Shown here piece by piece: positions 13,963 to 31,129 of a stretch of 64,000 nt of DNA; positions within the stretch are counted from its first letter, which is position 1; each line of letters starts with the position of its first letter. A model generated the notes under the pieces. It saw only the letters and a program-made list of their open reading frames with translations. It searched no databases and was not told where the DNA came from. Where the stretch lies: NCBI GenBank assembly GCA_963707865.1, contig OY970175.1, forward strand, positions 208,748 to 272,747. Direction: 5' to 3'. The translations under genes were made by a program, and so were the position numbers. Source of the stretch: an uncultured bacterium (GTDB lineage: Bacteria > Patescibacteriota > Minisyncoccia > UBA6257 > 2-01-FULL-56-20).

Positions 13963-13987
13963 CGAAGAAGGCCCGATAATTGTTGTT

Positions 13988-14938: not shown

Positions 14939-14980
14939 ATTCCCCAGCTTACGCTTCGAGGGGCCATATGTATGTGCAGA
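13992..14980 (-). mobile_element. IS481-family insertion sequence (copy A)
   Basis: Imperfect terminal inverted repeats 'TGTCCGTACATTTGTCCCCTCGA' (13992..14014) and 'TCGAGGGGCCATATGTATGTGCAGA' (14956..14980), ~18/23 matching; single DDE transposase inside. Confidence 0.8.
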
Positions 14981-15033
14981 GTACCTTGTTGACTGGCGAA
15001 ATCGCAGGAATCGTGGTATAATAGGAACAGAAC

Positions 15034-17022
15034 ATGGAGGAAGTTCCGGATAAAAACGTAATATATTTCGCACGAACCGATTTTCGCAATCAAGATCGGC
15101 TTTTTGGTATTAAGCGGAGCGACCGGCGCCAGCATATGTATGTCATAGGAAAAACCGGTACCGGCAAAAGCGCGCTCCTCAACAATATGGCCGTGCAGGA
15201 TATCGCGAACGGCGAGGGGCTTTGCGTGGTGGACCCGCATGGTGAGCTCGTGGAGGGGCTTATGAAAAGGATCCCGGAGGAACGGATGAAGGATGTCATC
15301 TATTTCAATCCGGCAGATACGGATTTTCACATCGGCTTCAACGTGCTGGAGCTGCCCGACCCAAAGTACAAGCACCTTGTGGCATCGGGACTCATGGGAA
15401 TTTTCACAAAGATTTGGGCGGGCGTCTGGTCGCCGCGCATGGAATACATTTTGAATAATTGCGTGCTCGCGCTCTTGGATACTCCGGGTTCCACGCTCCT
15501 CGGCATCCCTCGGCTTCTGACCGACAAAGATTACCGGCAGAAGATCATCGCGAACATAAAAGACCCCGTCGTGAAGGCGTTTTGGATCCACGAATTTGAA
15601 GGGTGGCAGGACCGGTTCAGGAACGAGGCCATCGCGCCGATACAGAACAAGGTGGGCCAATTCCTTTCCACCGCGCTTATCCGCAACATCGTCGGCCAAT
15701 CAAAGAGTACTGTGGACATTTTTGACGTGATGAACGAGGGAAAAATCTTCCTTGTGAATGTTTCCAAGGGTCGCATCGGGGAGGACAATTCTGCGCTCCT
15801 GGGCGCGATGCTTATCACGAAGATCCAGCTTTCGGCAATGGAGCGCGTGCGCGTCCCCGAGGACGAACGTGTGGACTTTTATCTTTATGTGGACGAGTTC
15901 CAGAACTTCGCCACGGATTCCTTCGCGGGCATCCTTTCCGAAGCGCGGAAGTACCGCCTGGATCTTATTCTCGCGCACCAATATATCGGCCAGCTCATCA
16001 CCGACACTTCGACGAGGGTGCGCGACGCGATCTTTGGTAACGTGGGAACAATGGTCACGTTCCGGGTGGGTGCTACCGATGCGGAGTTCCTGGAGAACGA
16101 GTTCACGCCTGAGTTCGTGATAGAAGACATCGTAAATCTTCCGAATTATTCCATCTATCTGAAGCTTATGGTGGACGGCGTGACGGCGCGCCCATTTTCC
16201 GCGGCCACGCTCCCCCCGCTTCAGGTGAAAACTTCCGCGATGGTAGAATCCGAGATCATCAGGATGTCACAGAAGCGCTACGCCCGGCCGCGCGAGGTCG
16301 TAGAGGAAGAGATCAATCGCTGGAGCGGCGTGATGGGACCGCCTGCGGCTACCAGTGCGGAAAAGAAAGGCGGAGATACGACGAGGTACGAAGCCGTATG
16401 TTCTTCATGCGGCAAGATGACGACGTTGCCGTTCGAGCCGACGCCGGGCCGGCCGGTGTATTGCCGCGATTGTTTGAAGAAAATAGAAGCAGGCGAACTT
16501 CAACCGATACGGGTGCCGCGCGCGTCAGTCGTACGCACGAGACCGCAGAAAAAATACGCAGATGATTTGAGTTATCTCGGCATTGAGTTCCCGGAGCAGG
16601 GAGCGCCGGCCGAGCTGCAGCCGGCGACGAGAAGGGCGCCGGTACCGGTGCGTCCCATGGGTTCCATGGATGGAAGGGGAGGGGCAGGAGCACCAATTTC
16701 CGGTTACGGGCCAAAAGCGGCCATGCCAACCTCTGTACCGGCCGCTGCGCCAGCCGCGCCGCCATCCGCCGAGCCGGCGGGGCGGACGCTTTCGCTATCT
16801 GAATTGAAATCGGCGGATCGGAGACCGAAGCTGAAGAAATCGCAACAACACGAGGAGATCAACATTTCCGAACTTCGGGAGGCAATCAAGGCATCATTGA
16901 GCGCAGATATCGGTGCGGGCTCCGCGCAGGCCGCCGAGGCGGAAAAAAGCGTCAGCGCTGACACCGATAAACGGGATGGCGAAGAAGACGGCAGCGACGA
17001 GGAGCGTGTGCGCCGCATTTGA
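15034..17022 (+). CDS. TraD/VirD4-like P-loop ATPase paralog with C-terminal CxxC-x17-CxxC zinc ribbon and long low-complexity acidic/Ala-Pro tail
   Basis: Walker A 'GKTGTGKS', 'VDPHGE', Walker B 'LYVDEFQNF', 'AHQYIGQL'; 'CSSCGKMTTLPFEPTPGRPVYCRDC'. Confidence 0.8.
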   Translation: MEEVPDKNVIYFARTDFRNQDRLFGIKRSDRRQHMYVIGKTGTGKSALLNNMAVQDIANGEGLCVVDPHGELVEGLMKRIPEERMKDVIYFNPADTDFHIGFNVLELPDPKYKHLVASGLMGIFTKIWAGVWSPRMEYILNNCVLALLDTPGSTLLGIPRLLTDKDYRQKIIANIKDPVVKAFWIHEFEGWQDRFRNEAIAPIQNKVGQFLSTALIRNIVGQSKSTVDIFDVMNEGKIFLVNVSKGRIGEDNSALLGAMLITKIQLSAMERVRVPEDERVDFYLYVDEFQNFATDSFAGILSEARKYRLDLILAHQYIGQLITDTSTRVRDAIFGNVGTMVTFRVGATDAEFLENEFTPEFVIEDIVNLPNYSIYLKLMVDGVTARPFSAATLPPLQVKTSAMVESEIIRMSQKRYARPREVVEEEINRWSGVMGPPAATSAEKKGGDTTRYEAVCSSCGKMTTLPFEPTPGRPVYCRDCLKKIEAGELQPIRVPRASVVRTRPQKKYADDLSYLGIEFPEQGAPAELQPATRRAPVPVRPMGSMDGRGGAGAPISGYGPKAAMPTSVPAAAPAAPPSAEPAGRTLSLSELKSADRRPKLKKSQQHEEINISELREAIKASLSADIGAGSAQAAEAEKSVSADTDKRDGEEDGSDEERVRRI

Positions 17023-17961: not shown

Positions 17962-18843
17962 TTATTGCTCAAACCTGCTCCTAAAAAGATTCTGCAGATT
18001 TTGCAGTCGCCCAAAGAGTTGGTTCAAGCGGTTGCTGAATCCGTTTATACTGGAGCTCGTTATGCCGTTTTCGCTTTCGTTCCCGTTGTTCCCGCTACCT
18101 TCGTTCTTGCCGTTCTCTTTTCCCTTGCCGCCCAAAGGGCCATTGGGATTGCCGGATGGCGGTCCGGTCCGCAGAACGGTGATGCTGTAGTCCCGTACCA
18201 CATCCGCGTTCACGACTAGCGGGGAGCTTGTAGCAACCTGACCCGTAACGCCAAGCTGGTCGCCAGCTAAGAGCTGGCTCAAGCTGAACGTTCCGCCGCT
18301 ATTGCCTCCGCGGAGATAGAAATCCGGTCTTCGCCCGTTCGTGGAGCTTGAGACGTTCACTGTGTAGGTGATGCCCCACACTGTGCCCGTAAAGGAATTA
18401 CTGCCCACGCTTTGCACGATGAGATCGCGCGCAAGGAAGTTGCCGTTTGGACCAATTTGGAGCTGGGGCGAAAGATTGACCGAAACGTGTGTCGTTGTGG
18501 ACGATGTGCTGAAGTAGGTGATGGTCCCCGAGCATGAGCCGTTGGCCACGCTTGAAGAAGCATCCGTCACCCGCACCGATGCACTATAGGTGCTATTCGC
18601 CCCGTACGTTGCTGTGGTTGAGGTACTCGTGCTGCTCGCTACGCCCGCATCGCCCGACCAAAGGTAGGCGTAGGGAGCGACGCCGCCGCTCGCAGACGCC
18701 AACCAGGTTATGGTGTTGTTGGATACCGAAGCCGCGCACGTCGCTTGGAGCGCAGCCGTTTGGGCGCTCGCGAGGGATACGCCGACAATGATCGCAGCGA
18801 ACATAACAGTACCTGCCACGCCAATAATTAGTTTGTTGTTCAT
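17962..18843 (-). CDS. Secreted Ser/Thr/Gly-rich protein
   Basis: Signal peptide 'MNNKLIIGVAGTVMFAAIIVGVSLASAQ'; low-complexity extracellular-type composition. Confidence 0.6.
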   Translation of the reverse strand: MNNKLIIGVAGTVMFAAIIVGVSLASAQTAALQATCAASVSNNTITWLASASGGVAPYAYLWSGDAGVASSTSTSTTATYGANSTYSASVRVTDASSSVANGSCSGTITYFSTSSTTTHVSVNLSPQLQIGPNGNFLARDLIVQSVGSNSFTGTVWGITYTVNVSSSTNGRRPDFYLRGGNSGGTFSLSQLLAGDQLGVTGQVATSSPLVVNADVVRDYSITVLRTGPPSGNPNGPLGGKGKENGKNEGSGNNGNESENGITSSSINGFSNRLNQLFGRLQNLQNLFRSRFEQ

Positions 18844-18908: not shown

Positions 18909-19268
18909 TTAACCGGTCAGTGGACCCACTTTTTCCTCTTCGTCTTTGTTCTCGCGGAATCCGCCGGCCTGGATACTCCACAGTTTTTGGTAAAGGCCGC
19001 CCTGTGTGAGAAGGTCGCGATGGTTGCCGTGGGCGACAACCTTCCCGTTCTCAATGACCACAATGCGGTCCATCTTCATGATGGTGGAAAGGCGATGGGC
19101 GATTACAATGACAGTCTTTCCTTTCATGAGCGTTTGGAGGGCATCCTGAATAAGGGCTTCGGATTCAGAGTCCAAACTTGACGTTGCCTCGTCCAAGACG
19201 AGGATAGGCGCGTTTTTGAGGATCGCACGGGCGATAGCCACCCTTTGGCGTTCGCCGCCAAAGCGCAC
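18909..19268 (-). pseudogene. Truncated ABC exporter ATP-binding protein (C-terminal ~120 aa only: signature, Walker B, H-loop)
   Basis: '[35 protein letters not shown]...VIAHRLSTI' (MsbA-like exporter NBD C-terminus). The frame is closed by a stop at 19281..19283; the Walker A region and the TMD are absent. The truncation point coincides with the low-GC island boundary. Confidence 0.7.
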
Positions 19269-19370
19269 AAACGGGACTCTCTAGGGCATTTGGGACTCGT
19301 TCGGTTTGACTAACATTACCCCTTACCAATGCCTTTGACTAAATTGAAAAATAGTTGTAAGGTTTAAAAT

Positions 19371-19742
19371 ATGCCTAAAATAATCACAAAACCTACGAGA
19401 ATCGAAGAAAATGGCGATAAAATCAAAATCGTTGAAGAGTATATTGGATTAGCCAATAGTAAGGATAAAAACGTTAGCATTGCTCATATGCGTGCCCCTA
19501 CGGGCTGGAAAGACCTCGGACAATGCCCAGAGTTTGATGAATTTACTATTGTTTTAAATGGTGTCTTACAGGTCGAATTTAAAGGGGGATCAATCGATAT
19601 TAAAGCTGGTCAAGCCGCGATAATGCACAAAGGCGAATGGGTTCGTTATAGCAGTTCGGACCCAGATGGGGTGGAATATATTTCTGTATGTATGCCAGCT
19701 TTTTCTCCTCAGAAGGTTCATAAAGATATTTTAATGCATTAG
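19371..19742 (+). CDS. Cupin-domain small protein
   Basis: ~120 aa beta-barrel-type sequence 'GEWVRYSSSDPDGVEYISVCMP'; first gene of island. Confidence 0.55.
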   Translation: MPKIITKPTRIEENGDKIKIVEEYIGLANSKDKNVSIAHMRAPTGWKDLGQCPEFDEFTIVLNGVLQVEFKGGSIDIKAGQAAIMHKGEWVRYSSSDPDGVEYISVCMPAFSPQKVHKDILMH

Positions 19743-19798
19743 CGTTAAGATAAAATGATAAAATCGGCGAGAATAGAAATAATTTTTACTTAATTTAT

Positions 19799-20878
19799 AT
19801 GTCTAAAAAATTAGAAACAATTTCATGGATTATAAACAGCAGGTGTAATTTGGAATGTTTGCATTGTTATACTAAATCTATCCAAGGCAAAGAACTAAGG
19901 CCGGATTACTCTGAAAAAGATATAGCACTGATGGCAAAAAATATTGGTAGTGTAAATCCTAAGGTTGTTATTATTTCCGGCGGAGAACCCTTAATAGATA
20001 AAGACTTGCTAATTTTTTTAAGAGAGGCCCGCAAAATCGCTTCTGAAGAGTTATGGCTTTGCACTAATGGAATGTTGCTTTCTGATGAATTTGTGGAACT
20101 CTTGAAGAAAAAAGGTGTAAACGGCATAACCTTGAGTCTGCGTCATCCAAATCCGATAAAAGAAGCAGAAATTTCTCAAAATAACGGGATTCATGGAAGG
20201 GTATTGAAAGCTATAAAAAAAATAGAGCGGGCAGGCATACGTGTCGTGCTTGAAATGACGATAATGAAATCAAATTGTGATAGCATTGATGATTTTATAG
20301 ACTTATGCGCTTGCAACAAAGTGGACACTATAATGTTTAAAAGATTTAGACCGATTGGCCGAGGAGAAGAAAATAATTTGGCATTATCAAAAACAAAAAA
20401 TAAACAAGTATTGCACCACATTTTTTTAAGGGCGAAAAGCAATCCAAAGCTAAATATAAGAGTGCATGATCCGTTGTATAGTTTAGAAATTTATGAGCAC
20501 TTTAAAAATAACAAAATAAAAACTAATGTTCCAGATTTTGATTTTTGTTCAAATATACAAACAGATGAAAATGAATCTCAGCGTTATTGGGGTTGCAGTG
20601 CAGGAATAGAATGGGTAGGCATAGACCCCCTTGGAAACGTCAGTCCATGTCCGCTTTTGTTGTATACGGGATTGGTTATCGGCAACATAAGAGAGAATAA
20701 ATTGTCAGAAATAATGAAAACATCTCCTGTCATAAAAGCATTGGAAGATGGCTATGAAAATGGGAAGTGCTCAAAGCGCAAGATTTGTGGCGGATGCCGG
20801 TCGCACGCCGCTGCAACAGGAAAGGGGTATCTTTCAAAAGATCCTATGTGTTTGCAAGAATGCGCAGAATGTTTTTAG
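19799..20878 (+). CDS. Radical SAM enzyme with C-terminal SPASM domain
   Basis: 'CNLECLHCY' CxxxCxxC; 'SGGEPL'; C-terminal Cys cluster 'CSAG...CP...CGGCRSHA...C..C'. Confidence 0.85.
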   Translation: MSKKLETISWIINSRCNLECLHCYTKSIQGKELRPDYSEKDIALMAKNIGSVNPKVVIISGGEPLIDKDLLIFLREARKIASEELWLCTNGMLLSDEFVELLKKKGVNGITLSLRHPNPIKEAEISQNNGIHGRVLKAIKKIERAGIRVVLEMTIMKSNCDSIDDFIDLCACNKVDTIMFKRFRPIGRGEENNLALSKTKNKQVLHHIFLRAKSNPKLNIRVHDPLYSLEIYEHFKNNKIKTNVPDFDFCSNIQTDENESQRYWGCSAGIEWVGIDPLGNVSPCPLLLYTGLVIGNIRENKLSEIMKTSPVIKALEDGYENGKCSKRKICGGCRSHAAATGKGYLSKDPMCLQECAECF

Positions 20879-20911
20879 TTAAACTGAACCTTATTTACCC
20901 TTGTTTATTAT

Positions 20912-22606
20912 ATGAAAAAAGAAATTGCCTCTCTTATAAAAGAAAAATTAAAATCAATAACAGATATAGATATAAATGAAGAAGAATTAGTCGGTAAAAT
21001 TGAAATACCACCCAATAAAGAATTGGGTGATTTTGCATTCCCATGTTTTTTTGTTGCTAAAAAGGTATCTATGAGTCCCCACACCTTAGCTCTTAAATTA
21101 AAAGAACTGTTTGCTGACGTTAGCGAGTTCAATGAGGTCAAGGTAATTGGTCCATATTTAAATTTATTTGTAGATAAGGTCAATTTTACTAAAAGAGTTT
21201 TGTCAGAAATTGATCAAAATTTTTCAACTACAATTTCTGATGCAAGTAAAAGAATTGTCATAGAATTTCCATCGCCAAATACTAATAAACCATTACATCT
21301 TGGACATTTAAGAAATATGGCAATAGGCGAATCACTAGCCAGAATATTGGAAAGTAATGGCAACAAGGTGTTTAGAGTTAATTTGTTTAACGATAGAGGG
21401 ATTCATATTTGTAAGTCGATGTTGGCTTATAAAAAATTTGGGGGGAATAAGGAACCAGACAAAAAACCAGATCATTTTGTTGGCGACTATTATATAAAAT
21501 TTAACGATCTCGCAAAAGAAAATGATAACTATAATAAAGAGGCGCAAGAAATGCTTCTTCAATGGGAAAGCGGTAATGAGGAGGTTAGATCTCTTTGGAG
21601 AAAAATGAACGCATGGGCGTATCAAGGACTTAAACAAACGTTCGAATTGTTCGGTATCAAGCATGATAAATATTATTATGAAAGTGAAATATTTAATCAC
21701 GCTAAAGAACTTGTTTTGGAAGGACTAAGATCGGGCGTTTTTAAAAAACGAGATGATGGTGCTGTAATTATGGACTTAACCGAAGATGGACTAGACGAAA
21801 AGGTGCTCTTGCGGCCAGATGGTACCACGGTTTACATGACCCAAGATTTATATCTGATAAAATTAAAAGATATGGATTATAACCCGGATAAATCCATTTA
21901 CATTGTTGGGAACGAACAAGATTATCACTTTAAAGTGCTATTCCTTATAGTAAAAAAAATGGGCTGGAAACAACAATTAAAGCATTTATCATATGGAATA
22001 GTAGCACTGCCAGAAGGTAGAATGAAATCACGGGAAGGCAATGTTGTGAACGCCGATGATTTAATAGAAACGGTTACACAGCTTGCAAAGAAAGAATGTG
22101 TTGATCGCAATAAGAATATCAGTAAAGATGAGCTAGAATATAGAAGTAAAAAAATCGCATTAGCCGCCATAAAATATACCCTACTTAAACCTAATATATT
22201 TAACGATATGGTTTTTGATCCCAAGAAGTCAATTAGCTTTGACGGAGATACTGGACCATATTTACTTTATTCTTATGCGCGCGCCTCTTCTATACTAGAA
22301 AAAAGCGAGACTGAAAACAAAAACCAATCCCAAGATATAAAGAGAATAGATGTTTATGAACACGAACTAGTTAAAAAAATTAGTAATTTCCATGAAATAA
22401 TAAAAAGTGCAGCAGATGAATTAAATCCTTCAATTGTTGCTCATTATTCCTTTGATTTAGCTAAAACATTTAATGAGTTTTATCACGCCTGTCCCGTACT
22501 AAAATCTGACAATGAGGATATTAGAATAAAATTAGTTAAGGCATTTTATGTCATCTTTAAAAAATCCCTTTATTTATTAGGTATAGATGCATTGGAAAAA
22601 ATGTAA
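20912..22606 (+). CDS. argS: Arginyl-tRNA synthetase (class I aaRS), full length, encoded inside the AT-rich island
   Basis: HIGH motif 'PLHLGHLRN', KMSK-type 'RMKSREGN', C-terminal anticodon-binding DALR-like region; 564 aa. Confidence 0.85.
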   Translation: MKKEIASLIKEKLKSITDIDINEEELVGKIEIPPNKELGDFAFPCFFVAKKVSMSPHTLALKLKELFADVSEFNEVKVIGPYLNLFVDKVNFTKRVLSEIDQNFSTTISDASKRIVIEFPSPNTNKPLHLGHLRNMAIGESLARILESNGNKVFRVNLFNDRGIHICKSMLAYKKFGGNKEPDKKPDHFVGDYYIKFNDLAKENDNYNKEAQEMLLQWESGNEEVRSLWRKMNAWAYQGLKQTFELFGIKHDKYYYESEIFNHAKELVLEGLRSGVFKKRDDGAVIMDLTEDGLDEKVLLRPDGTTVYMTQDLYLIKLKDMDYNPDKSIYIVGNEQDYHFKVLFLIVKKMGWKQQLKHLSYGIVALPEGRMKSREGNVVNADDLIETVTQLAKKECVDRNKNISKDELEYRSKKIALAAIKYTLLKPNIFNDMVFDPKKSISFDGDTGPYLLYSYARASSILEKSETENKNQSQDIKRIDVYEHELVKKISNFHEIIKSAADELNPSIVAHYSFDLAKTFNEFYHACPVLKSDNEDIRIKLVKAFYVIFKKSLYLLGIDALEKM

Positions 22607-22615
22607 AATTGATTT

Positions 22616-23680
22616 ATGCCTCATTGTAAAAAAAATTGTATTAGCTTATTCGTTACAAATCAATGCAATTTATCCTGCCGGTATTGTTATTGTGAGAAAA
22701 AATCGGAAAAGCAGTCTATCAATATTGATTTTGCTAAAGCGGGCATTAACGATTTTTATTTAAATTTCGGCCATATTTATTTGCGCCTTTTCGGTGATGG
22801 AGAGCCAACTTTAGAATTTAAAAAAATTAAGTCCATTATTTCGTTTGCAAGAAAAAAAGATAAAAATGCCATAATCGAATTACAAACCAATGGCTTTTTC
22901 CCTAAAAAAATTGCCGATTATATAACTAAAAACATAGATATTGTTTGGATATCTTGTGATGGAGTACCAGAAATTCAAAATTATTATAGGCCCACTATAA
23001 ATAATACCCCGACAAGCACGATTGTCGAAAAAAATATCCGTTATTTAACTAAAAAAATTAGGACGCTAGGAATCAGAATTACCATTGGCAATAAAAATGT
23101 AAAACGACAAAAAGAAATCATCGACTATTTCAAAGATCTAGGAGTAAAATATATCTATACGGATCTATTATTTAAGCCAATAAAAAATAAATTGGGTGTT
23201 GAAGGCACGAGTCCTTTAAATTATGCCAAGCAATTTATTGTTGCTAAAAAATATGCCGAACGAAACAATATTTTTTACGGCTCTTTTTTTGAAATAAATT
23301 TTGATGGTAAAACTGATATTCACTGCAGAGCATGCAATCCATCACCTCACCTAACTTCTGATGGGTATGTTACCTGCTGTGATATGGCTTATAACGGAAC
23401 GACCTTTCCCGTTATGGTATACGGAAAATACGATCCTAAAACCAAATCAATTGTTTATTACGAAGATAAAATAAAGGTAATTCAATCGAGGCGAGTTGAC
23501 AATATTCAAGAATGTAAAAATTGCGAAATTAGATATAACTGTGCTGGGGGTTGTTTGGGCGAAGCTCTTAATGAATCGGGATCCATTTTTAGTATTAAAA
23601 AAGAAAATTGCAGAGCAATTAAATTTCTCGCCAAGCGATTGCCTTTAAATAAAAAAAAATTACCAGTTTTTCATCCATAA
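22616..23680 (+). CDS. Radical SAM enzyme with SPASM domain
   Basis: 'CNLSCRYCY'; 'FGDGEPTL'; C-terminal 'CKNCEIRYNCAGGCLGEA...C'. Confidence 0.85.
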   Translation: MPHCKKNCISLFVTNQCNLSCRYCYCEKKSEKQSINIDFAKAGINDFYLNFGHIYLRLFGDGEPTLEFKKIKSIISFARKKDKNAIIELQTNGFFPKKIADYITKNIDIVWISCDGVPEIQNYYRPTINNTPTSTIVEKNIRYLTKKIRTLGIRITIGNKNVKRQKEIIDYFKDLGVKYIYTDLLFKPIKNKLGVEGTSPLNYAKQFIVAKKYAERNNIFYGSFFEINFDGKTDIHCRACNPSPHLTSDGYVTCCDMAYNGTTFPVMVYGKYDPKTKSIVYYEDKIKVIQSRRVDNIQECKNCEIRYNCAGGCLGEALNESGSIFSIKKENCRAIKFLAKRLPLNKKKLPVFHP

Positions 23681-23689
23681 TTTAAAGTA

Positions 23690-24589
23690 ATGAGAATATT
23701 GTATTTAGTAGCAACAAATAAATGTACCCTATCATGTAGCTATTGTTTTTATAATACGGGCCTTTCTAAAAAAAGTTTATCTGATATAAAAACAGAAAAA
23801 ATCTTAGGAAAAGTAAAGTCGCTCTCAAAATATTTTGATCATGTTATTTTTACTGGCGGAGAGGCATTGCTTATAAAGGATATATTTTTACTAGCTTCAG
23901 AGTTTAAAAAGAATAAAGTTAAAACAAGCATTATAACTAACGGAACTCTATTAACTCATGATATTTGTAACAAAATATCTTCTGTATTTGATAAGGTGTC
24001 CCTTTCTTTAGATTCTCTTGATTCAAAACTAAATGATCTAACTAGGGGAAAATCTTCTATTGTAAGAAATGGGTTGAATAATTTGTTAAACGTTAGGTCA
24101 GAAAGCCTTGAGATTGAAATAATACAGACAATTACGGCTGTAAATTATGAATCCATTGATGAGATGATAAAGTTTTGTAATGAAAAAAACATAAAACTTT
24201 GGCTTCCGCCAGTAGATTTAAATTATAATAACCCGTTTTCTCTTAAAAGATTAAATGCTGTTCAAGTGGATAAGTTAAAAAAAAATTTTAAAAGATGGAT
24301 TAAGTTTAAGTCCGGCAATGATAAAAAAGAACAAATTGCTTTAAGCGACTTTTTGAATAATATAGAAAGTTTATTGCAAGACAAATCGATACAGATTCCT
24401 TGCAAGATGGGAGTTGAAAATTTTGTGTTAGATCCTGATGGTAACATATATGCGTGTTTTTTTAGGAAAGATCTATTTTTTGGTAACTTATATAAAGATA
24501 AATTATCGCAAATAATGAAAAAAATTCCTGGAAAAGACATATTAAGCAATTGTGTTAGTTTGGGTTGTTTATCTTGTACAGATTTTTAA
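23690..24589 (+). CDS. Radical SAM enzyme (SPASM/twitch-like C-terminal Cys cluster)
   Basis: 'CTLSCSYCF'; 'FTGGEALL'; C-terminal 'CKMG...C...CVSLGCLSC'. Confidence 0.8.
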   Translation: MRILYLVATNKCTLSCSYCFYNTGLSKKSLSDIKTEKILGKVKSLSKYFDHVIFTGGEALLIKDIFLLASEFKKNKVKTSIITNGTLLTHDICNKISSVFDKVSLSLDSLDSKLNDLTRGKSSIVRNGLNNLLNVRSESLEIEIIQTITAVNYESIDEMIKFCNEKNIKLWLPPVDLNYNNPFSLKRLNAVQVDKLKKNFKRWIKFKSGNDKKEQIALSDFLNNIESLLQDKSIQIPCKMGVENFVLDPDGNIYACFFRKDLFFGNLYKDKLSQIMKKIPGKDILSNCVSLGCLSCTDF

Positions 24590-24598
24590 ATGAAAAAG

Positions 24599-24629
24599 GA
24601 TACCCAAGGACTGTAAAGGCGTGGGTATC
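24599..24629. terminator. Hairpin (GATACCCA...TGGGTATC) between convergent island genes
   Basis: 8-bp inverted repeat between 23690..24589(+) and 24660..25538(-). Confidence 0.4.
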
Positions 24630-24659
24630 TATATCCAACTCCGTGATAAATTTGTTTTT

Positions 24660-25538
24660 TTAACTATACTTTTCTATTTTTTTAAGATCTTTTTCTCGAT
24701 TTTGTGCAATCAAAATCTCTTTTAGTGTTGCGTTAAAGTTATCAAATAGGTTATTTTGAGTTAGTATTTCATTTTTATTTTTTTCGTTAGCAGTTATTAT
24801 TACTTCACCGTTTGGTCTAACGATTATTTCCGGGTTGACAGTGTCGTTTGCTTCGCGGGTAACTTTTATTTTTCCTGAAAATTTTTTCTTTAGTTTATCT
24901 ACTTTTTCATTAAAGTCAGATGTTTCAATTAGCATTGTATCTAAGATGGGATCGCTTTCTCCCTTTCCCAATCTTCGAATTTGGTATAGTTTCCAGATAC
25001 TTTCGTTTTCTCTTATTCTTTTTTCATAGTTTAGTTTTAGCAAGAGGTTTCCTATGTTTTCCAAGTCATCAAAGTTTTGTTTAAATACGCAGGTCCCGAT
25101 TTTTAGTTTTATTTGAGGATATTTTTCAAGTATGTACTTTATTGAACTTATTGATCTTTCAAATCCTCTTTTGCCACGCCGGAAATCTATTTCTGGGCTT
25201 GATGCTTCAAGTGAGATCGCGATTGTGTTTAGGTATAGAGCTACCTTCGGCATTAGTTTAATCAGATTCGCGCCGTTTGTTTGCAAAACAATGTCTAAGC
25301 CCAGTTCTTTTTTGGCATATTTTATGAATTCGTATATTTTTGGGACCAAGGTAGGTTCTCCTCCAGTTAGTATTATTTTGGTGAGTCCAAATAATCTTAG
25401 TTTTTTTATAGCCTGTTTAAAATCATTTAGAGGTCTGTTTTCGATTTCTATTGGTGGCCCCCAACAGCCTGGGCAGTTTGCATCGCAACTACTTGTTACC
25501 TCTAAGTGAACGACAGGAGTTATAGTTAATTTTTGCAT
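24660..25538 (-). CDS. Radical SAM enzyme (no obvious SPASM domain)
   Basis: 'CDANCPGCW' CxxxCxxC; 'TGGEPTL'. Confidence 0.8.
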   Translation of the reverse strand: MQKLTITPVVHLEVTSSCDANCPGCWGPPIEIENRPLNDFKQAIKKLRLFGLTKIILTGGEPTLVPKIYEFIKYAKKELGLDIVLQTNGANLIKLMPKVALYLNTIAISLEASSPEIDFRRGKRGFERSISSIKYILEKYPQIKLKIGTCVFKQNFDDLENIGNLLLKLNYEKRIRENESIWKLYQIRRLGKGESDPILDTMLIETSDFNEKVDKLKKKFSGKIKVTREANDTVNPEIIVRPNGEVIITANEKNKNEILTQNNLFDNFNATLKEILIAQNREKDLKKIEKYS

Positions 25539-25578
25539 AAATAATTAGTAAATTTATAAATATTTAATTTTGTTGGTT

Positions 25579-26247
25579 TCATTTGCAATATTTTTTTGAG
25601 TAATTGTTTATTTTTTTTAAAATGTCTGGGTTTATTGTATAGTGTTGAGCATATTTTTGAATTAGACGGCGGGAGTTTGTAATTGAGTAGAAAGGTATCT
25701 TAAAATCTTCGCGTATTGATTTTTCAACTGTTTTTCCGTCACTCCTTGTTTCTAATCGGTTGGTGATTGAAATAACTGCTTGAATTTTTACGTTGAGTTT
25801 TAGCAATAGTTTTATGCACTTTCTTAAAGAATTCCCCGTTGTTACATCATCTTCGATTAAAACAAATTTTAGATTTTTCGGTACTGGCGTTACTGAGTAG
25901 TGCGTTTCTTTTGCTTGATATTTTTTCGGGTGTGATCGAAGTACTATTTGTGGAACTGTTGAAGGTTTTTTGTAATTTATTAGTGTATTTAAAACAATAG
26001 CTATTGGTGTTCCGGTTTCGGGGACCCCTAAGTAAGCATCTGGCTTTAAATTATTCTTTTTTGTGTAGGCATAGATATGCCTACACAATTTTTTCAAAGA
26101 TTCGGAGTTTTTCATGCTGTTTCTGATGTCCACATCATAATAGCTGATTCTTCCAGACTTAAGTTTGATTGGTTTTTTATTTATTATTAAGCAATCGTTA
26201 TCTAAGAGAAACTTTTCAAATTTTTCTAGTTCGAACATAATTACCAT
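25579..26247 (-). CDS. Type I phosphoribosyltransferase, orotate-PRTase (PyrE)-like paralog
   Basis: 'LKSGRISYYDVD' (compare chromosomal PyrE 'LVSGRFSPWYANW') and PRPP-binding 'VLIEDDVTTGNSL'. Confidence 0.7.
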   Translation of the reverse strand: MVIMFELEKFEKFLLDNDCLIINKKPIKLKSGRISYYDVDIRNSMKNSESLKKLCRHIYAYTKKNNLKPDAYLGVPETGTPIAIVLNTLINYKKPSTVPQIVLRSHPKKYQAKETHYSVTPVPKNLKFVLIEDDVTTGNSLRKCIKLLLKLNVKIQAVISITNRLETRSDGKTVEKSIREDFKIPFYSITNSRRLIQKYAQHYTINPDILKKINNYSKKYCK

Positions 26248-26750
26248 TTATGAATGATTGTAAGGGAATTTACCTTTATTTATTGATAGATGTTTTGCAA
26301 GATATCTGATTGCTTTATGGAACTTCTGTAATATTACAATTTTATATTATCTTTTTATTTTTGTCAAATTAAAATTCAGCTCAACCTAAGGTTTTAAAAT
26401 TTTACTGAACATACTACCGCCTGGAAGGCGGCAGGTTCACCGAGCGGCCGTCAATTTGAAATTGACTGTTGTCTTCCACCGGTTCGCCCTCTTGCTCCTT
26501 GATGTAGTCCCTGTCGAAAGATGTTTCTGAAGAGAAGGTGAGTAAAACAATAACGAAATCGATTGGGCCACTATTAATCGAAGGGCCAGTGCTTTTCGAC
26601 CGCTTTCCGAAGAATGTCGCGTGTCTCTTGCCTTCCGCCAAGTTTTTCAATCTTATGAGAGAACCCTCTCCGATGAAGAAGTGAACGGAATAATGAACGA
26701 AGTAATTGCAGCGCTGGAAGGAAAGGGGTAGGAGGTGAGAAAGTAGCCAA

Positions 26751-26993
26751 TCACCCTTTAATTTCTATGGCTCTTCTTGGGCAGCTTCTCTCTGCCATCT
26801 TTAGACAGACCATAAACTTTTTGTTTGATGTGAGTGCGGGAGGCACGGTTCTACGAACCTTAATTCCATTTTCGCCATAGGAAAAGACTTCGGGGCATAT
26901 GCTTACGCACGTACCGCACTGAGCGCACTTGCGTTTGTGATAGACAATTTTCATTTGCTGTTGGCTTTGTTGCTTCTCGCCTGATAACGACAT
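26751..26993 (-). CDS. Single-cluster 4Fe-4S ferredoxin
   Basis: 'CAQCGTCVSICP' ... 'CP'; true start may be internal Met (MKIVYHKRKC). Confidence 0.65.
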   Translation of the reverse strand: MSLSGEKQQSQQQMKIVYHKRKCAQCGTCVSICPEVFSYGENGIKVRRTVPPALTSNKKFMVCLKMAERSCPRRAIEIKG

Positions 26994-27052
26994 TTTAAAA
27001 TGGAATCGTGCTATTGTATAGGATGAAAATAGTTCAACGCATGGCTGGCATG

Positions 27053-27970
27053 TTAAAGCACCGAGCGGAGAAGCGCCATCCGGACGTAGACGCCGTTCTT
27101 GGTCTGCCGGAAGTATGCCGCCCGCACGTCGTCATCCACTTCCTTTGCGATCTCATTCACGCGGGGCAGGGGATGCACGATGATGGCCTCCTTCTTTAGT
27201 ACGCGAAGCACTCCGCTGTCTATCGTGTATGAATCTTTTACCTTGTTATATTCTGCTTCCGATTGGAACCGTTCTTTTTGCACCCGCGTGACCGAAAGCA
27301 CATCGGTCTTCCCCGCGATTGTTTTGATATCCGCTGATTCCTCCAGTGGGATATTGTGCTCTTTGAGATATGCGACATATTCGTCGGGAAGCCGCAACTG
27401 CGGCGGCGTGACGCAATACACGCGCACGTTGCGGAAAAGGGGAAGAAGAAACGCGGTGGAGTGAACCGTGCGGCTGTAGCGCAGGTCGCCGACGAAGGTG
27501 ATCACAAGGTCATCCAATCTTCCGAGTTCCTTCTGGATGGTGTAGAGATCAAGGAGCGCCTGCGTGGGGTGTTCCTTGCTGCCATCGCCCGCGTTTATGA
27601 CAGGCACGGGTGAGGTGGATGCCATCCGTTCTGCGGCGCCCGCTTCGGGATGGCGAACGATGATTACGTTTGCATAGCCGCCGACCACGTGCGCCGTATC
27701 CTCCAGTGTTTCGCCTTTCTTCGCGGAAGAGAATTCCCCGGCGCTTTCGGCGGAGATGACATTGCCGCCGAGCTTGTACATCGCGGTTTCAAACGAGAAC
27801 CGAGTGCGCGTGCTCGGTTCGTAGAATATAGTAGCTGCAATCTTTCCGGCACATTCCGCAGAGAGCTTCCCTTCCTTGTCCCGCCCTTCCATTTCTCCCG
27901 CGGTCCGGAAGAGCTCTTCAAGAAGCGGTCGATCAAGGAATTGTTTTGCGCTTAAAATGTGCTTCATCAA
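27053..27970 (-). CDS. pyrB: Aspartate carbamoyltransferase catalytic subunit
   Basis: 'STRTRFSFE', 'HPTQALLDLYT', 'HPLPRVNEI'. Confidence 0.9.
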   Translation of the reverse strand: MMKHILSAKQFLDRPLLEELFRTAGEMEGRDKEGKLSAECAGKIAATIFYEPSTRTRFSFETAMYKLGGNVISAESAGEFSSAKKGETLEDTAHVVGGYANVIIVRHPEAGAAERMASTSPVPVINAGDGSKEHPTQALLDLYTIQKELGRLDDLVITFVGDLRYSRTVHSTAFLLPLFRNVRVYCVTPPQLRLPDEYVAYLKEHNIPLEESADIKTIAGKTDVLSVTRVQKERFQSEAEYNKVKDSYTIDSGVLRVLKKEAIIVHPLPRVNEIAKEVDDDVRAAYFRQTKNGVYVRMALLRSVL

Positions 27971-29223
27971 GAATTATTATATACCTTTCCGCCGACGATG
28001 TTGTGGATGACGCTGCCCGGGAACCTCATGCCCTCAAACGGCGACCAGCCGCACTTTGTTTTTAGATCTTCCTGTCGGACCGTCATGGGGAGGTCCGGAT
28101 TTATAATGGTGAATGAACCATAGTAGCCCTCCGCGATCACACCGAATCCCTTTCCATATTTTTTCGGGAGGTAGGGATTTACGAAATTGCCCGGGTTGAA
28201 CGCGGAAACGCGGGCGATGTCCTGTGGTGTGAATTTGTGCTCGCGCATGAGCCACGCCGTGAAGGGACCGTAGGTATCAAGATGCGGCATGCCGGAAGTG
28301 CCTTTCATTTTTTCTTCTTTTGTGTGCGGCGCATGATCGGTTGCAAGAAAATCAATGCCGCCCGTGCGCAGAAGCTCAATGAGCGCGTTTCGATCTGCGG
28401 GATTCGTACGCAGGGCCGGGTTTACCTGGAGCCAACGCCGCTTCTCGTCGCTCACCGACGCAGCGTCAAAATAAAGATGGTGCGGCGCGATCTCGCAGGT
28501 TACCGACACGCCGCGCTGTTTCGCCTCAATGATCTTCCGCACGGCGGAAAGCGTGGATGCATGGCATATTTTCCCCGCAAGATCGTATTTTTGAATGAGG
28601 GCGAGCGCAAAATCAACGGCGATGATTTCTGCCTCGGGCGAGCGGCGCAGTTCGTGCGTCGATTCGTGTTCGTGCGCCTTGAGCGCCGCGGGATCTTCGC
28701 AGTGGAAGCTAATATTTTGGCCGCGATAGTGCGCGAGGGACGCCTCCAACTCCTCTTGTGACGTAAAAAAGAGATCTCCCACCGACGGTCCCATGAAGAC
28801 CTTGTAGGGGACAGGGAACGAGAGCGGTTTTGTCTTTGGTCCAATGCCACCGTAGAGGACGACGGGCACAAGCGATCGCCCGGCAATCTTTTCCTTTTCG
28901 CGGTAACGTTCATCCGTTACGGGCGCCACGGGATTGTTCGGCATTTCGGCGAAGAACGTAACGCCGCCACGGATCGCCGCCTCTGATGCCGTTCGGAAGG
29001 TCTCTTTGTATGATTGCGTGCCGCCCGCGTCCTCGCGCGCATGCACGTGGATGTCGCCGAAGCCGGGGAAAATGAGGCAGCCCGTGGTGTCTATTTCCGA
29101 TTTTGATGGGCCCCGTGCACGGCTCACGTGCTCTATCAATCCTGTTGCGCGGTTCACGTCCACCCGCCCATCAAATTCTCCGTCGTGATTAATGAATTTT
29201 CCGTCCAAAACAAGCGCGTTCAT
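27967..29223 (-). CDS. pyrC: Dihydroorotase
   Basis: 'DIHVHAREDAGG', 'DHAPH'; overlaps pyrB by 4 nt. Confidence 0.9.
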   Translation of the reverse strand: MNALVLDGKFINHDGEFDGRVDVNRATGLIEHVSRARGPSKSEIDTTGCLIFPGFGDIHVHAREDAGGTQSYKETFRTASEAAIRGGVTFFAEMPNNPVAPVTDERYREKEKIAGRSLVPVVLYGGIGPKTKPLSFPVPYKVFMGPSVGDLFFTSQEELEASLAHYRGQNISFHCEDPAALKAHEHESTHELRRSPEAEIIAVDFALALIQKYDLAGKICHASTLSAVRKIIEAKQRGVSVTCEIAPHHLYFDAASVSDEKRRWLQVNPALRTNPADRNALIELLRTGGIDFLATDHAPHTKEEKMKGTSGMPHLDTYGPFTAWLMREHKFTPQDIARVSAFNPGNFVNPYLPKKYGKGFGVIAEGYYGSFTIINPDLPMTVRQEDLKTKCGWSPFEGMRFPGSVIHNIVGGKVYNNS

Positions 29224-30305: not shown

Positions 30306-30319
30306 GGGACAAGTGGATG

Positions 30320-31117: not shown

Positions 31118-31129
31118 GGAGTTGAGCGG

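What the first reader, a model, noticed from the sequence alone, without database searches (positions are those of the whole stretch)
19270..26410. AT-rich island: four radical SAM enzymes + ArgRS + PyrE-like PRTase + cupin, inserted into an ABC exporter gene
A ~7.1-kb block has strikingly lower GC than both flanks. It is bounded on the left by a truncated ABC exporter NBD and on the right by a return to high-GC host sequence. It encodes a compact two-strand cluster:
- a cupin;
- three radical SAM enzymes with SPASM or SPASM/twitch-type C-terminal Cys clusters (19799, 22616, 23690);
- a fourth radical SAM enzyme on the opposite strand (24660);
- a complete arginyl-tRNA synthetase (20912);
- an orotate-PRTase-like phosphoribosyltransferase (25579).

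I found no precursor peptide, integrase or transposase in the island. SPASM radical SAMs usually mature peptides or cofactors. An aaRS embedded in such a cluster suggests two alternatives. One is aminoacyl-tRNA-dependent chemistry, meaning Arg-tRNA used as a substrate; PEARL and cyclodipeptide-synthase systems are precedents for tRNA-dependent natural-product steps. The other is a self-resistance copy of the target of an ArgRS-inhibiting product. The PRTase suggests a nucleotide or nucleoside scaffold. I do not recognise the combination as any described cluster. It is a candidate horizontally acquired biosynthetic or modification system.
Basis: partly seen in the sequence, partly recalled or inferred. 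Interest (0 to 1): 0.9.

Follow-up and report, generated by a model that had tools for sequence, protein, structure and literature searches.

The report
Mobile radical-SAM/ArgRS gene cassette in CPR bacteria
A very rare seven-gene cassette (four radical SAM enzymes, an orotate-PRTase-like enzyme, a small cupin and a complete arginyl-tRNA synthetase) was recently transferred between ultra-small Patescibacteria and replaced the front of an ABC exporter gene; its chemistry is unknown but probably builds a modified nucleotide.

Summary
Window 19260-27053 is foreign DNA. Its AT-rich core (19333-26243; GC 0.32, GC3 0.23-0.34 against host 0.65-0.67) carries seven intact genes. A close relative's genome preserves the empty site: there pyrB is followed by an intact 601-aa ABC exporter, whose first 489 codons are replaced by the insert here.

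The host is itself a GC-rich Patescibacterium (CPR), not an ordinary bacterium. The cassette recurs, rearranged, in a handful of CPR-type metagenome contigs and in one Moranbacteria MAG. It is under strong purifying selection (dN/dS 0.05-0.21) and extremely rare: about 10 rSAM4 clusters among 5.8 billion proteins, and 2 of about 185,000 reference genomes.

An ArgRS is adjacent in 6 of 7 informative loci. In Moranbacteria that position holds an ArgRS only 27% identical to this one, which argues for a functional link. The ArgRS is catalytically canonical.

rSAM4 has a viperin-type fold, and the PRTase keeps all PRPP and catalytic residues. There is no precursor peptide, tRNA gene, riboswitch or known tRNA-dependent transferase.

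Best reading (about 40%): a nucleotide-derived metabolite pathway with ArgRS as immunity or as Arg-tRNA supplier. Main rival: the ArgRS is a hitch-hiker. It matches no described system.

The parts
18927..19259 (-). 3' remnant of the host ABC exporter gene (residues 490-600 of 601; the ORF call is 18909-19268)
   Evidence: It is 93.7% identical at protein level and 93% at DNA level to the intact exporter of the relative L027. It matches only the C-terminal end of MsbA-type models.
19260..27053 (.). Whole foreign block that replaces 1,477 bp of the ABC exporter gene
   Evidence: Synteny with L027 breaks exactly at 19259/19260 and at 27053/27054. No terminal repeats were found.
19333..26243 (.). 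The conserved cassette proper (AT-rich core)
   Evidence: Nucleotide homology to the other cassette copies (L024, L011, L016, L012, L007, L005) covers exactly this span. GC is 0.325.
19371..19742 (+). Small cupin (123 aa), first gene of the plus-strand operon
   Evidence: The AraC_binding/cupin match is weak (25 bits). Homologues occupy the same cassette position in L011 (68% identical) and L024 (78%). The only PDB relatives are EutQ-like cupins at E of about 0.02.
19799..20878 (+). rSAM1, a radical SAM/SPASM enzyme (NirJ/AhbD-like, below all cut-offs)
   Evidence: Radical_SAM and SPASM domains. Best NCBIfam hits are NirJ2 at 145 bits and AhbD at 136 bits, both against a cut-off of 500. The CX3CX2C motif and the C-terminal cysteines are conserved.
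20912..22606 (+). Complete, canonical arginyl-tRNA synthetase of the CPR/DPANN lineage
   Evidence: TIGR00456 466 bits. The HLGH, TVYMTQD and MKSR motifs are intact, and 168 of 181 conserved columns are retained. dN/dS is 0.09. It lies 33 nt after rSAM1 and 9 nt before rSAM2.
22616..23680 (+). rSAM2, a radical SAM/SPASM enzyme (PapB/CteB/anSME-like)
   Evidence: PapB model 101 bits (cut-off 340), aligned over the full length. CteB 5wgg gives 46 bits. All 16 of its cysteines are conserved in 7/7 homologues.
23690..24589 (+). rSAM3, a radical SAM enzyme with a partial SPASM/twitch domain
   Evidence: Radical_SAM and SPASM domains. Remote matches to SkfB, BlsE, QueE and MoaA. Conserved C238, C256, C288 and C293.
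24660..25538 (-). rSAM4, a viperin-fold radical SAM enzyme and the cassette's rare marker gene
   Evidence: pVip HMMs give 71-88 bits over the full length, below the cut-off of 180. The AF2 model has pLDDT 82. The top 26 PDB fold matches are viperins, several with bound CTP or UTP. Only about 10 protein clusters exist among 5.8 billion proteins.
25579..26247 (-). OPRTase-like type I phosphoribosyltransferase, co-operonic with rSAM4
   Evidence: Pribosyltran domain. The pyrE model gives 65 bits against a cut-off of 107. KSGR, the loop Arg and Lys, the EDDVTTG motif and R164 are conserved with E. coli and host PyrE. It is 31% identical to the host PyrE-like gene. The family is tiny.
26339..26367 (-). 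Promoter-like site upstream of the PRTase-rSAM4 operon
   Evidence: TTGACA-17-TAAAAT, 11/12 matches. This is a consensus scan only, and such sites are not enriched in the region.
26538..26731 (+). Frameshifted remnant of the C-terminal FDX-ACB domain of PheRS beta subunit (pheT)
   Evidence: PF03147 34.6 bits (cut-off 31.1). It matches pheT_bact positions 758-790 of 798. It is absent from the relative's empty site. GC is 0.48.
26751..26993 (-). 80-aa single-cluster ferredoxin inside the insert, a possible electron donor
   Evidence: Fer4_13 36.6 bits. It has a CxxCxxCxxxCP motif. It is absent from the relative and from the other cassette loci. GC is 0.45.
27053..27970 (-). Host pyrB, the right-hand anchor of the insertion site
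   Evidence: TIGR00670 340 bits. It is syntenic with L027.

Best explanation
Shown: a 7.8-kb piece of DNA from another, lower-GC Patescibacterium recombined into this GC-rich Patescibacterium directly downstream of pyrB. It deleted the first 489 codons of an ABC exporter. It carries a conserved, selectively maintained seven-gene cassette with two convergent operons: cupin-rSAM1-ArgRS-rSAM2-rSAM3 on the plus strand and PRTase-rSAM4 on the minus strand.

Inferred mechanism: the cassette makes a modified nucleotide or nucleoside-type metabolite.
1. The OPRTase-like PRTase condenses a pyrimidine-like base with PRPP to give a nucleoside 5'-monophosphate.
2. After phosphorylation by host kinases, the viperin-fold rSAM4 performs radical chemistry on the nucleotide's ribose.
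3. The twitch and SPASM enzymes rSAM3, rSAM2 and rSAM1, together with the cupin, tailor the product further.
4. The co-transcribed ArgRS is a functional component, in one of two ways. It may be an insensitive target copy that lets any recipient tolerate an ArgRS-directed product. Alternatively it may guarantee Arg-tRNA(Arg) for a tRNA-dependent arginylation carried out by one of the Fe-S enzymes.
For: Transfer and site:
- An empty site exists in relatives.
- The GC3 contrast is strong.
- Cassette homology is limited to 19333-26243.

Real, maintained unit:
- The same genes recur in L005, L007, L011, L012, L016, L018 and L024 at 64-93% identity.
- dN/dS is 0.05-0.21 for every gene.
- All Fe-S motifs are conserved.

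Nucleotide chemistry:
- The PRTase keeps all PRPP and catalytic residues.
- It is always adjacent to rSAM4.
- The closest sequence families and folds for rSAM4 are viperins, several solved with bound CTP or UTP.
- In the L002 variant, a related PRTase sits beside a YjjG-like pyrimidine nucleotidase, a glycosyltransferase and a deacetylase.

Not a RiPP: there is no room for a precursor gene.

ArgRS link:
- An ArgRS is adjacent in 6 of 7 informative loci despite rearrangements.
- It is separated by only 9-33 nt from the rSAM genes in the same operon.
- In Moranbacteria the slot at the 5' end of rSAM2 holds a 27%-identical, E. coli-type ArgRS, while the rSAM and PRT genes are 66-84% identical.

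Precedents:
- BGC-encoded ArgRS copies confer immunity to a natural ArgRS inhibitor (preprint 10.64898/2025.12.02.691738).
- BlsK is an Fe-S, tRNA-dependent aminoacyltransferase acting on an arginine-containing nucleoside (review PMC12710036).
Against: - No enzyme reaches any characterised family's cut-off, so substrates are inferred from fold and context only.
- The cassette encodes no exporter, no kinase and no recognised tRNA-dependent transferase.
- The ArgRS arginine pocket and catalytic motifs are identical to CPR housekeeping enzymes. By contrast, the tiarin immunity ArgRSs have altered pockets.
- L012 has the cassette without an ArgRS.
- The ArgRS clade includes stand-alone members in housekeeping-like contexts (L003, L025).
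- Other aaRS genes also lie next to the cassette: AspRS in L024, a PheT remnant here, and LeuRS 3.8 kb away in L007.
- Translation genes are generally enriched in Patescibacteria islands (PMC12455944). Adjacency may therefore reflect neighbourhood rather than function.
- Archaeal rSAM4 relatives (40-55% identical) sit with HMG-CoA reductase, NUDIX and cytidylyltransferase-like genes instead. The substrate of rSAM4 may therefore not be a classical NTP.
Confidence: 0.4

Rival explanations
1. The cassette is the same, but the ArgRS is a hitch-hiker. It is an ordinary (xenologous) housekeeping argS that lay next to the rSAM/PRTase genes in an ancestral CPR genome and is dragged along by physical linkage. 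It plays no role in the cassette's chemistry.
For: - The ArgRS is fully canonical.
- All cassette-linked copies of the window's type fall in one clade. That is compatible with a single ancestral juxtaposition.
- Clade members also serve alone in housekeeping-like contexts.
- L012 lacks an ArgRS.
- Other aaRS genes flank the cassette.
- Translation genes are enriched in Patescibacteria islands.
Against: - Linkage survives several rearrangements: the window's order differs from that of L011 and L024, and L005 has lost rSAM1 and rSAM2.
- A non-orthologous ArgRS occupies the same slot in Moranbacteria. I estimate the chance of a random neighbour being argS at roughly 2 in 1,000 genes.
- The ArgRS sits inside the operon with 9-33 nt gaps.
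Confidence: 0.3
2. The cassette is a translation-apparatus modification system. It builds or installs a hypermodified nucleoside or residue on tRNA(Arg), on another tRNA, or on an aaRS or ribosomal component. That would explain why it sits among aaRS genes.
For: - The cassette is repeatedly close to aaRS genes: two ArgRS lineages, AspRS, a PheT remnant and LeuRS.
- rSAM2 resembles protein- and peptide-modifying SPASM enzymes such as PapB, CteB and anSME.
- Established knowledge: several complex tRNA modifications use radical SAM enzymes (TYW1, QueE, MiaB, RaSEA).
Against: - No tRNA gene, transglycosylase or RNA-binding domain is in the cassette.
- To my knowledge, no described tRNA modification pathway uses a soluble type I PRTase.
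- The cassette is far too rare to be a core translation function.
Confidence: 0.12
3. The cassette is an anti-phage defence module of the viperin type. rSAM4 makes a chain-terminating ddh-nucleotide from a nucleotide supplied by the PRTase, and the remaining genes are accessory.
For: - pVip models are the best defence-library hits for all four rSAMs, with rSAM4 at 87.5 bits.
- rSAM4 has a viperin fold.
- The best plasmid hits are annotated pVips.
- Some loci sit among RM, Abi, HEPN/NT toxin-antitoxin and integrase genes.
Against: - rSAM4 scores 71 bits against the viperin cut-off of 180, with only 17-22% structural identity.
- As far as I recall, known pVips work alone or with a kinase, not with three further rSAMs, a cupin and an aaRS.
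- Archaeal relatives are fused to HMG-CoA reductase in a metabolic context.
- No other gene of the cassette has a PADLOC match.
Confidence: 0.1
4. The cassette is a RiPP maturation cluster whose precursor peptide is encoded elsewhere, or is one of the encoded proteins.
For: Three of the four rSAMs have SPASM or twitch domains. Their best named hits include PapB, SkfB, StsB and CteB.
Against: - No conserved small ORF fits in the 9-70 nt intergenic gaps.
- An all-frame comparison gave only shadows of coding DNA.
- No RRE, protease or exporter is present.
- RiPP logic does not explain the invariable PRTase partner.
Confidence: 0.05

Closest known systems
Viperin / prokaryotic viperins (pVips, radical-SAM nucleotide dehydratases)
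   Same: rSAM4 aligns over its full length with pVip HMMs. Its model's best 26 structural neighbours are viperins. Like viperin it has no auxiliary Fe-S cluster. It is paired with a nucleotide-supplying enzyme, loosely as viperin is paired with CMPK2 (from memory).
   Different: - It scores far below the family cut-off (71 against 180 bits) and shares only 17-22% structural identity.
- Its partner is a PRTase, not a kinase.
- It is embedded with three further rSAMs, a cupin and an ArgRS.
- Archaeal relatives are fused to HMG-CoA reductase.
Biosynthetic gene clusters carrying a resistant aaRS copy (tiarin clusters with ArgRS; albomycin with SerRS plus two rSAMs, from memory)
   Same: A complete aaRS is embedded in, and co-transcribed with, tailoring enzymes. 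The unit moves horizontally as a block. ArgRS is a proven natural antibiotic target with BGC-encoded immunity copies.
   Different: - Tiarins are YcaO-type RiPPs with precursor peptides, and nothing of that kind is here.
- Their immunity ArgRSs have altered arginine pockets, whereas this one is unchanged.
- A second, housekeeping argS has not been demonstrated in this genome.
Blasticidin S-type peptidyl-nucleoside pathways (BlsE radical SAM decarboxylase; BlsK Fe-S, tRNA-dependent aminoacyltransferase)
   Same: The combination is similar: nucleoside scaffold chemistry, radical SAM/twitch enzymes, arginine, and aminoacyl-tRNA use by an Fe-S protein. rSAM3 has a weak match to BlsE (29 bits).
   Different: No homologues of the other Bls enzymes are present. 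The similarity to BlsE is at superfamily level only. BlsK could not be compared because its sequence and primary paper were unavailable.
rSAM/SPASM peptide maturase systems (PapB, CteB, SkfB, anSME)
   Same: rSAM1-3 share the domain architecture and auxiliary-cluster cysteines.
   Different: No precursor peptide, RRE, protease or transporter is present. All scores are far below the equivalog cut-offs.
Orotate phosphoribosyltransferase (PyrE)
   Same: It has the type I PRTase fold with KSGR, the flexible-loop Arg and Lys, the acidic PRPP motif and R164 (E. coli R156) conserved. It is 31% identical to the host's own PyrE-like protein.
   Different: It is below the pyrE cut-off (65 against 107 bits). 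The base-contacting hood differs. It is a tiny separate branch, with 5 representative clusters at E <= 1e-30. It is located in the cassette, not in the pyr operon.
Genomic islands of Patescibacteria (PMC12455944)
   Same: The transfer is intra-phylum. The island carries a translation gene and lies next to mobile-element genes.
   Different: This cargo has not been described. There is no integrase or att repeats. The insertion occurred by replacing part of a host gene.

Membership tests
Horizontally acquired genomic island | Compositional discontinuity with the host | tested here: met
   GC is 0.325 against about 0.55. GC3 is 0.23-0.34 against 0.65-0.67.
Horizontally acquired genomic island | Absent from the same site in a close relative (empty site) | tested here: met
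   L027-L029 have pyrB followed directly by an intact ABC exporter. The breakpoints are at 19259/19260 and 27053/27054.
Horizontally acquired genomic island | Own integrase or transposase and flanking att or inverted repeats | tested here: not met
   No such gene lies in 19260-27053, and there are no border repeats. An IS481 transposase and TraG-like genes lie outside the insert to the left.
Viperin / pVip family | Score at or above the curated family cut-off (NF038283, 180 bits) | tested here: not met
   rSAM4 scores 71.5 bits, and the other three rSAMs score lower or do not list the model.
Viperin / pVip family | Viperin-type fold over the full length, with no auxiliary cluster | tested here: met
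   The top 26 Foldseek matches are all viperins, TM 0.62-0.76. The only conserved cysteines are the CX3CX2C triad plus C150.
Viperin / pVip family | Converts an NTP to a 3'-deoxy-3',4'-didehydro-NTP | not testable with these tools
   This needs an enzyme assay.
RiPP cluster with rSAM/SPASM maturase | Adjacent precursor peptide gene | tested here: not met
   Intergenic gaps are 9-70 nt. There is no conserved intergenic small ORF.
RiPP cluster with rSAM/SPASM maturase | SPASM or twitch auxiliary-cluster domain in the maturase | tested here: met
   PF13186 is found in rSAM1 and rSAM3, and there is a conserved Cys array in rSAM2.
tRNA-dependent natural-product systems (PEARL, CDPS, Fem/GNAT-type transferases) | Presence of a LanB-like, CDPS or Fem-type aminoacyl-tRNA-using enzyme | tested here: not met
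   No such domain was found in any of the seven proteins.
BGC with self-resistance aaRS | aaRS embedded in and co-oriented with biosynthetic genes | tested here: met
   The ArgRS lies between rSAM1 and rSAM2 with 33- and 9-nt gaps. This arrangement recurs in L011, L016, L024 and L002.
BGC with self-resistance aaRS | A second, housekeeping copy elsewhere in the genome | not testable with these tools
   Only 64 kb of the 899-kb contig is available. No second copy lies in the window.
BGC with self-resistance aaRS | Resistant copy differs from housekeeping enzymes in the inhibitor or substrate pocket | tested here: not met
   Only 13 of 181 conserved columns vary in the clade, and most of those changes are conservative. 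The HLGH, TxYxTQD and MKSR motifs are identical. The only notable change is A316 to I/M/T in the three closest copies.
Tiarin (trifolitoxin-like) BGC | Precursor peptide with YcaO/TfxB-type enzymes | tested here: not met
   None are present. The family is described.
Arginyl-tRNA synthetase (argS) | Full three-domain architecture above the equivalog cut-off, with catalytic motifs | tested here: met
   TIGR00456 466 bits against 262. Arg_tRNA_synt_N, tRNA-synt_1d and DALR_1 domains are all present, as are the motifs.
Orotate phosphoribosyltransferase (pyrE) | Score at or above the TIGR00336 cut-off (106.8 bits) | tested here: not met
   65 bits.
Orotate phosphoribosyltransferase (pyrE) | PRPP-binding and catalytic residues | tested here: met
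   K30, S31, G32, R33, R104, K108, D133, T136, G138 and R164 are invariant with E. coli and host PyrE.

The most novel reading that the evidence does not exclude
The cassette is the first antibiotic-type pathway of CPR/Patescibacteria. It would be a radical-SAM route to an arginine-linked or arginyl-adenylate-mimicking nucleotide that targets ArgRS, or uses Arg-tRNA, in neighbouring or host cells. The embedded ArgRS would be the mobile immunity or supply gene that must travel with it. This would also define a new enzymology: a viperin-fold rSAM plus a PRTase acting on a non-canonical base, and possibly an Fe-S enzyme that uses aminoacyl-tRNA.
Probability: 0.15. Interest if true: 0.85.

Novelty: new variant of a known kind. 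Interest (0 to 1): 0.62.

Why it matters
CPR/Patescibacteria are regarded as metabolically minimal episymbionts. A selectively maintained, horizontally mobile seven-gene cassette with four radical SAM enzymes is a large investment for a genome of about 1 Mb, which suggests an important ecological function such as interaction with hosts or competitors, or nucleotide scavenging.

The recurrent pairing with an ArgRS, filled by two unrelated ArgRS lineages, is a testable clue. It points either to a new ArgRS-directed or Arg-tRNA-dependent metabolite or to an unrecognised link between translation genes and radical-SAM nucleotide chemistry.

The locus also gives an unusually clean example of intra-CPR gene transfer, with an exact empty site. 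It also supplies a new, very small viperin-fold enzyme family whose archaeal relatives are fused to HMG-CoA reductase.

Tried and rejected
1. An all-frame small-ORF comparison across loci, meant to find a precursor peptide, returned only alternative-frame shadows of conserved coding DNA. I rejected it as uninformative. The intergenic gaps alone exclude a separate precursor gene.
2. Searches for border repeats or att sites gave only AT-rich chance matches.
3. Viral-contig scans with rSAM4, rSAM2, PRTase and ArgRS and a phage tblastn found nothing, so there is no evidence for a phage vector.
4. tRNA and Rfam scans of the window and seven loci found no tRNA-Arg and no riboswitch.
5. An exact-sequence cluster look-up for organism names returned no names. 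The host was identified through CarB homologues instead.
6. Literature searches for the gene combination and for the NCBIfam names NrtL and SrmL found no description. The latter search hit only acronym collisions. The primary BlsK paper is not held.
7. A search for clade-specific active-site substitutions in the ArgRS found none of note except A316.
8. I first assumed the host was an ordinary GC-rich bacterium receiving DNA from CPR. One search rejected that.
9. I considered that the PRTase is simply a second pyrE linked to the neighbouring pyr operon. I rejected this because the relative's pyr operon lacks it, and because it travels with rSAM4 at 84-91% identity in the unrelated cassette loci.

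Full report
OBSERVATION

The compositional island is real. In 500-bp windows GC falls to 0.28-0.36 between 19500 and 26499, against roughly 0.52-0.62 on both sides. It is the only such trough in the 64-kb window. Third-codon GC of the seven island genes is 0.23-0.34, against 0.65-0.67 for flanking genes.

Pfam and NCBIfam confirm the following:
- a small cupin
- four radical SAM proteins (rSAM1-4)
- a three-domain ArgRS (TIGR00456 466 bits, cut-off 262)
- a type I PRTase closest to pyrE (65 bits, cut-off 107)

None of the four rSAMs reaches any curated equivalog cut-off. Every CX3CX2C motif is present and conserved in homologues. The C-terminal cysteine arrays show SPASM-type sets in rSAM1 and rSAM2 and a smaller twitch-like set in rSAM3. 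rSAM4 has none.

HOST AND INSERTION SITE

The right flank is a pyrimidine operon: pyrB, pyrC, pyrD, pyrF, a PyrE-like gene, carB and carA. The left flank contains an IS481-family transposase and two TraG/TrwB-type genes.

CarB is 94% identical to a protein of a 'Minisyncoccia bacterium' MAG. Nearly all the other named hits are Patescibacteria. So the host is itself a CPR bacterium, unusually GC-rich. The source contig is 898,885 bp.

Contigs of the close relative (L027-L029) preserve the empty site. There pyrB is followed 10 nt later by an intact 601-aa ABC exporter, then a 168-aa ORF, an ATP-cone protein and the same TraG-like gene.

Alignment gives exact breakpoints. L027 13717-18515 matches window 31864-27054, and L027 19993-20319 matches window 19259-18933. 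Hence window 19260-27053 (7,794 bp) replaces 1,477 bp encoding exporter residues 1-489. No terminal repeats, integrase or tRNA gene mark the borders.

Homology to other copies of the cassette covers only 19333-26243. The remaining right-hand 810 bp (26244-27053) includes an intermediate-GC stretch (GC 0.45-0.48). It holds a frameshifted remnant of the PheT FDX-ACB domain and an 80-aa ferredoxin. Both are absent from the relative and from the other loci. I infer that this is a scrap of donor backbone.

THE CASSETTE ELSEWHERE

The viperin-like rSAM4 is extremely rare. There are about 10 protein clusters among 5.8 billion, nearly all 78-87% identical. It occurs in two of about 185,000 species-representative genomes and in eight metagenome contigs.

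In the group with rSAM4 at least 78% identical, the same genes recur:
- L011 and L024 show the commonest order: cupin-rSAM1-PRT-rSAM4 converging on rSAM3-rSAM2-ArgRS. The short contig L016 holds PRT-rSAM4 converging on rSAM3-rSAM2-ArgRS, consistent with that order.
- The window has cupin-rSAM1 moved in front of the ArgRS.
- L005 has lost rSAM1 and rSAM2. A 63-nt rSAM1 remnant survives there.
- L012 has PRT, rSAM4, rSAM3 and rSAM2 only.
- The Moranbacteria MAG (L007 and its duplicates) has rSAM1-PRT-rSAM4, then rSAM3-rSAM2, then an ArgRS.

dN/dS is 0.05-0.21 for all seven genes. Each gene has a different nearest locus, which indicates recombination among copies.

No close relatives occur on viral contigs or phage genomes. 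On plasmids, only distant pVips match.

IS THE ArgRS PART OF IT?

Evidence for a functional link:
- An ArgRS is adjacent in 6 of 7 informative loci, or 7 of 8 counting the L002 variant.
- In the window it sits inside the operon with 33- and 9-nt gaps.
- In Moranbacteria the ArgRS beside the 5' end of rSAM2 is only 27% identical to the window's, while the other genes are 66-84% identical. It is a bona fide argS of the E. coli/Neisseria type. The window's ArgRS belongs to a CPR/DPANN lineage.
- Two unrelated ArgRS lineages in the same slot are hard to ascribe to chance.

Evidence against:
- The cassette exists without an ArgRS (L012).
- In an NJ tree, the linked ArgRSs form one clade that also holds unlinked members (L003 in a housekeeping-like context, L025 beside AMP-binding and AsnB-like genes). 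Its sister group is CPR housekeeping enzymes.
- The enzyme is entirely canonical. Of 181 columns at least 90% conserved in 108 other ArgRSs, only 13 vary in the clade, and most of those changes are conservative. The HLGH, TVYMTQD and MKSR motifs are unchanged.
- Other aaRS genes also border the cassette: a non-discriminating AspRS in L024, the PheT remnant here, and LeuRS 3.8 kb away in L007.
- Translation genes are reported to be enriched in Patescibacteria islands (PMC12455944).

WHAT IT PROBABLY DOES

The PRTase keeps every PRPP-binding and catalytic residue shared by E. coli and host PyrE. It is a tiny divergent branch. It is always next to rSAM4.

rSAM4 aligns over its full length with pVip models, though well below the cut-off. 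Its AlphaFold model (pLDDT 82, pTM 0.82) has viperins, several with bound CTP or UTP, as its 26 best structural neighbours.

rSAM3 is remotely like SkfB, BlsE, QueE and MoaA. rSAM2 resembles CteB, PapB and anSME. rSAM1 resembles NirJ, AhbD, SkfB and MoaA.

There is no room for a precursor peptide. No tRNA gene, riboswitch or known tRNA-dependent transferase is present.

The L002 variant couples ArgRS-rSAM2 with a 48%-identical PRTase, two other rSAMs, a YjjG-like nucleotidase, a glycosyltransferase, a deacetylase and a SpoT-type HD hydrolase. That has the look of a nucleoside or sugar pathway.

I therefore favour a nucleotide-derived small-molecule pathway. The ArgRS would act either as an immunity copy or as the Arg-tRNA supplier. 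The immunity idea has a precedent in tiarin clusters, where BGC-encoded ArgRS confers resistance. The supplier idea has a precedent in the Fe-S, tRNA-dependent transferase BlsK. This is inference, and I give it about 0.4. The rivals are ArgRS as hitch-hiker (0.3), a tRNA or translation modification system (0.12), a viperin-type defence module (0.1) and a RiPP cluster (0.05).

COMPARISON AND NOVELTY

The locus is not a member of the pVip, PyrE, RiPP-maturase, PEARL/CDPS or tiarin families, because defining features were tested and not met (see the membership table). It works most like an aaRS-bearing biosynthetic cluster on a genomic island.

No paper or curated model describes this gene set. 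I rate it a new variant of a known kind. It is of real interest for CPR biology and radical SAM enzymology, but its function is unproven.

LIMITS

- Whether the genome has a second argS could not be tested.
- The ArgRS tree is an unbootstrapped NJ tree.
- The number of independent loci is small, about eight.
- Several contigs are short.
- The taxonomic assignment of most loci to CPR is inferred from composition and gene content, except for the Moranbacteria MAG and the window's host.

Noticed in passing
L015:9995-12100 (archaeon SO_2017_GW1_24); also L019, L020, L021, L013: Archaeal relatives of rSAM4 (40-55% identical) are fused or adjacent to HMG-CoA reductase. They are flanked by a conserved NUDIX and a cytidylyltransferase-like gene, near GcpE, UbiA and cis-prenyltransferase genes. 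This is an isoprenoid, CoA or NAD-type context with no PRTase or ArgRS.
   Followed up: partly
L024:6955-7866 (-); L007:18283-20380: A non-discriminating AspRS (383 bits) lies directly upstream of the cassette's cupin in L024, so that copy has an aaRS at both ends. A LeuRS lies 3.8 kb from the Moranbacteria cassette.
   Followed up: partly
window 26538-26731 and 26751-26993: A frameshifted PheT C-terminal remnant and an intact 80-aa ferredoxin, both of intermediate GC (0.45-0.48), lie inside the insert but outside the conserved cassette. They may be donor backbone, and the ferredoxin may serve as reductant for the rSAMs.
   Followed up: partly
L002:4749-14600: A variant cluster has a SpoT-type HD hydrolase, ArgRS (75%) and rSAM2 (79%). 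These converge on a deacetylase, a GT28-type glycosyltransferase, an HprK-like kinase, a W-cofactor-maturase-like rSAM/SPASM, a twitch rSAM, a PRTase (48%) and a YjjG-like HAD nucleotidase.
   Followed up: partly
L025:177-6948: An ArgRS of the same clade (69% identical) lies next to an AMP-binding enzyme, an AsnB-like amidotransferase and two unknown proteins. This is another biosynthetic-looking neighbourhood without the rSAM cassette.
   Followed up: no
window 27053-36562: The CPR host carries a complete de novo pyrimidine operon: carA, carB, a PyrE-like gene, pyrF, pyrD, pyrC and pyrB. From general knowledge, this is unusual for Patescibacteria, which mostly lack nucleotide biosynthesis.
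   Followed up: partly
window 17962-18843 and 9886-17022: The site is a variability hot spot. A 293-aa ORF with no Pfam match replaces the relative's 168-aa ORF next to the exporter remnant. Two TraG/TrwB-type paralogues (9886-11376 and 15034-17022) and an IS481 transposase (13988-15073) lie just to the left.
   Followed up: partly
window 20912-22606, residue 316: Ala316 lies four residues after the Arg-binding TxYxTQD motif and is invariant in 108 other ArgRSs. It is Ile, Met or Thr in the window's ArgRS and its two closest relatives.
   Followed up: no
L007:7522-7629: A 35-aa ORF upstream of rSAM1 in Moranbacteria (MDHVKILPPRLKKGQKIGIFTPADPV...) resembles, from memory, the N-terminus of LD-carboxypeptidase/MccF-type peptidases. 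It is probably a gene fragment.
   Followed up: no
L003:1-21689: A contig labelled 'Deltaproteobacteria bacterium' has GC of only 0.36. It carries the CPR-type ArgRS (65% identical) among housekeeping genes and beside TrfA, ParA and ParB. The taxonomic label or the replicon type may be wrong.
   Followed up: no
L012:13658-13730: In the one cassette copy without an ArgRS, a tRNA-Gln(CTG) gene lies about 700 nt beyond the 5' end of rSAM2. It may be an island integration site.
   Followed up: no
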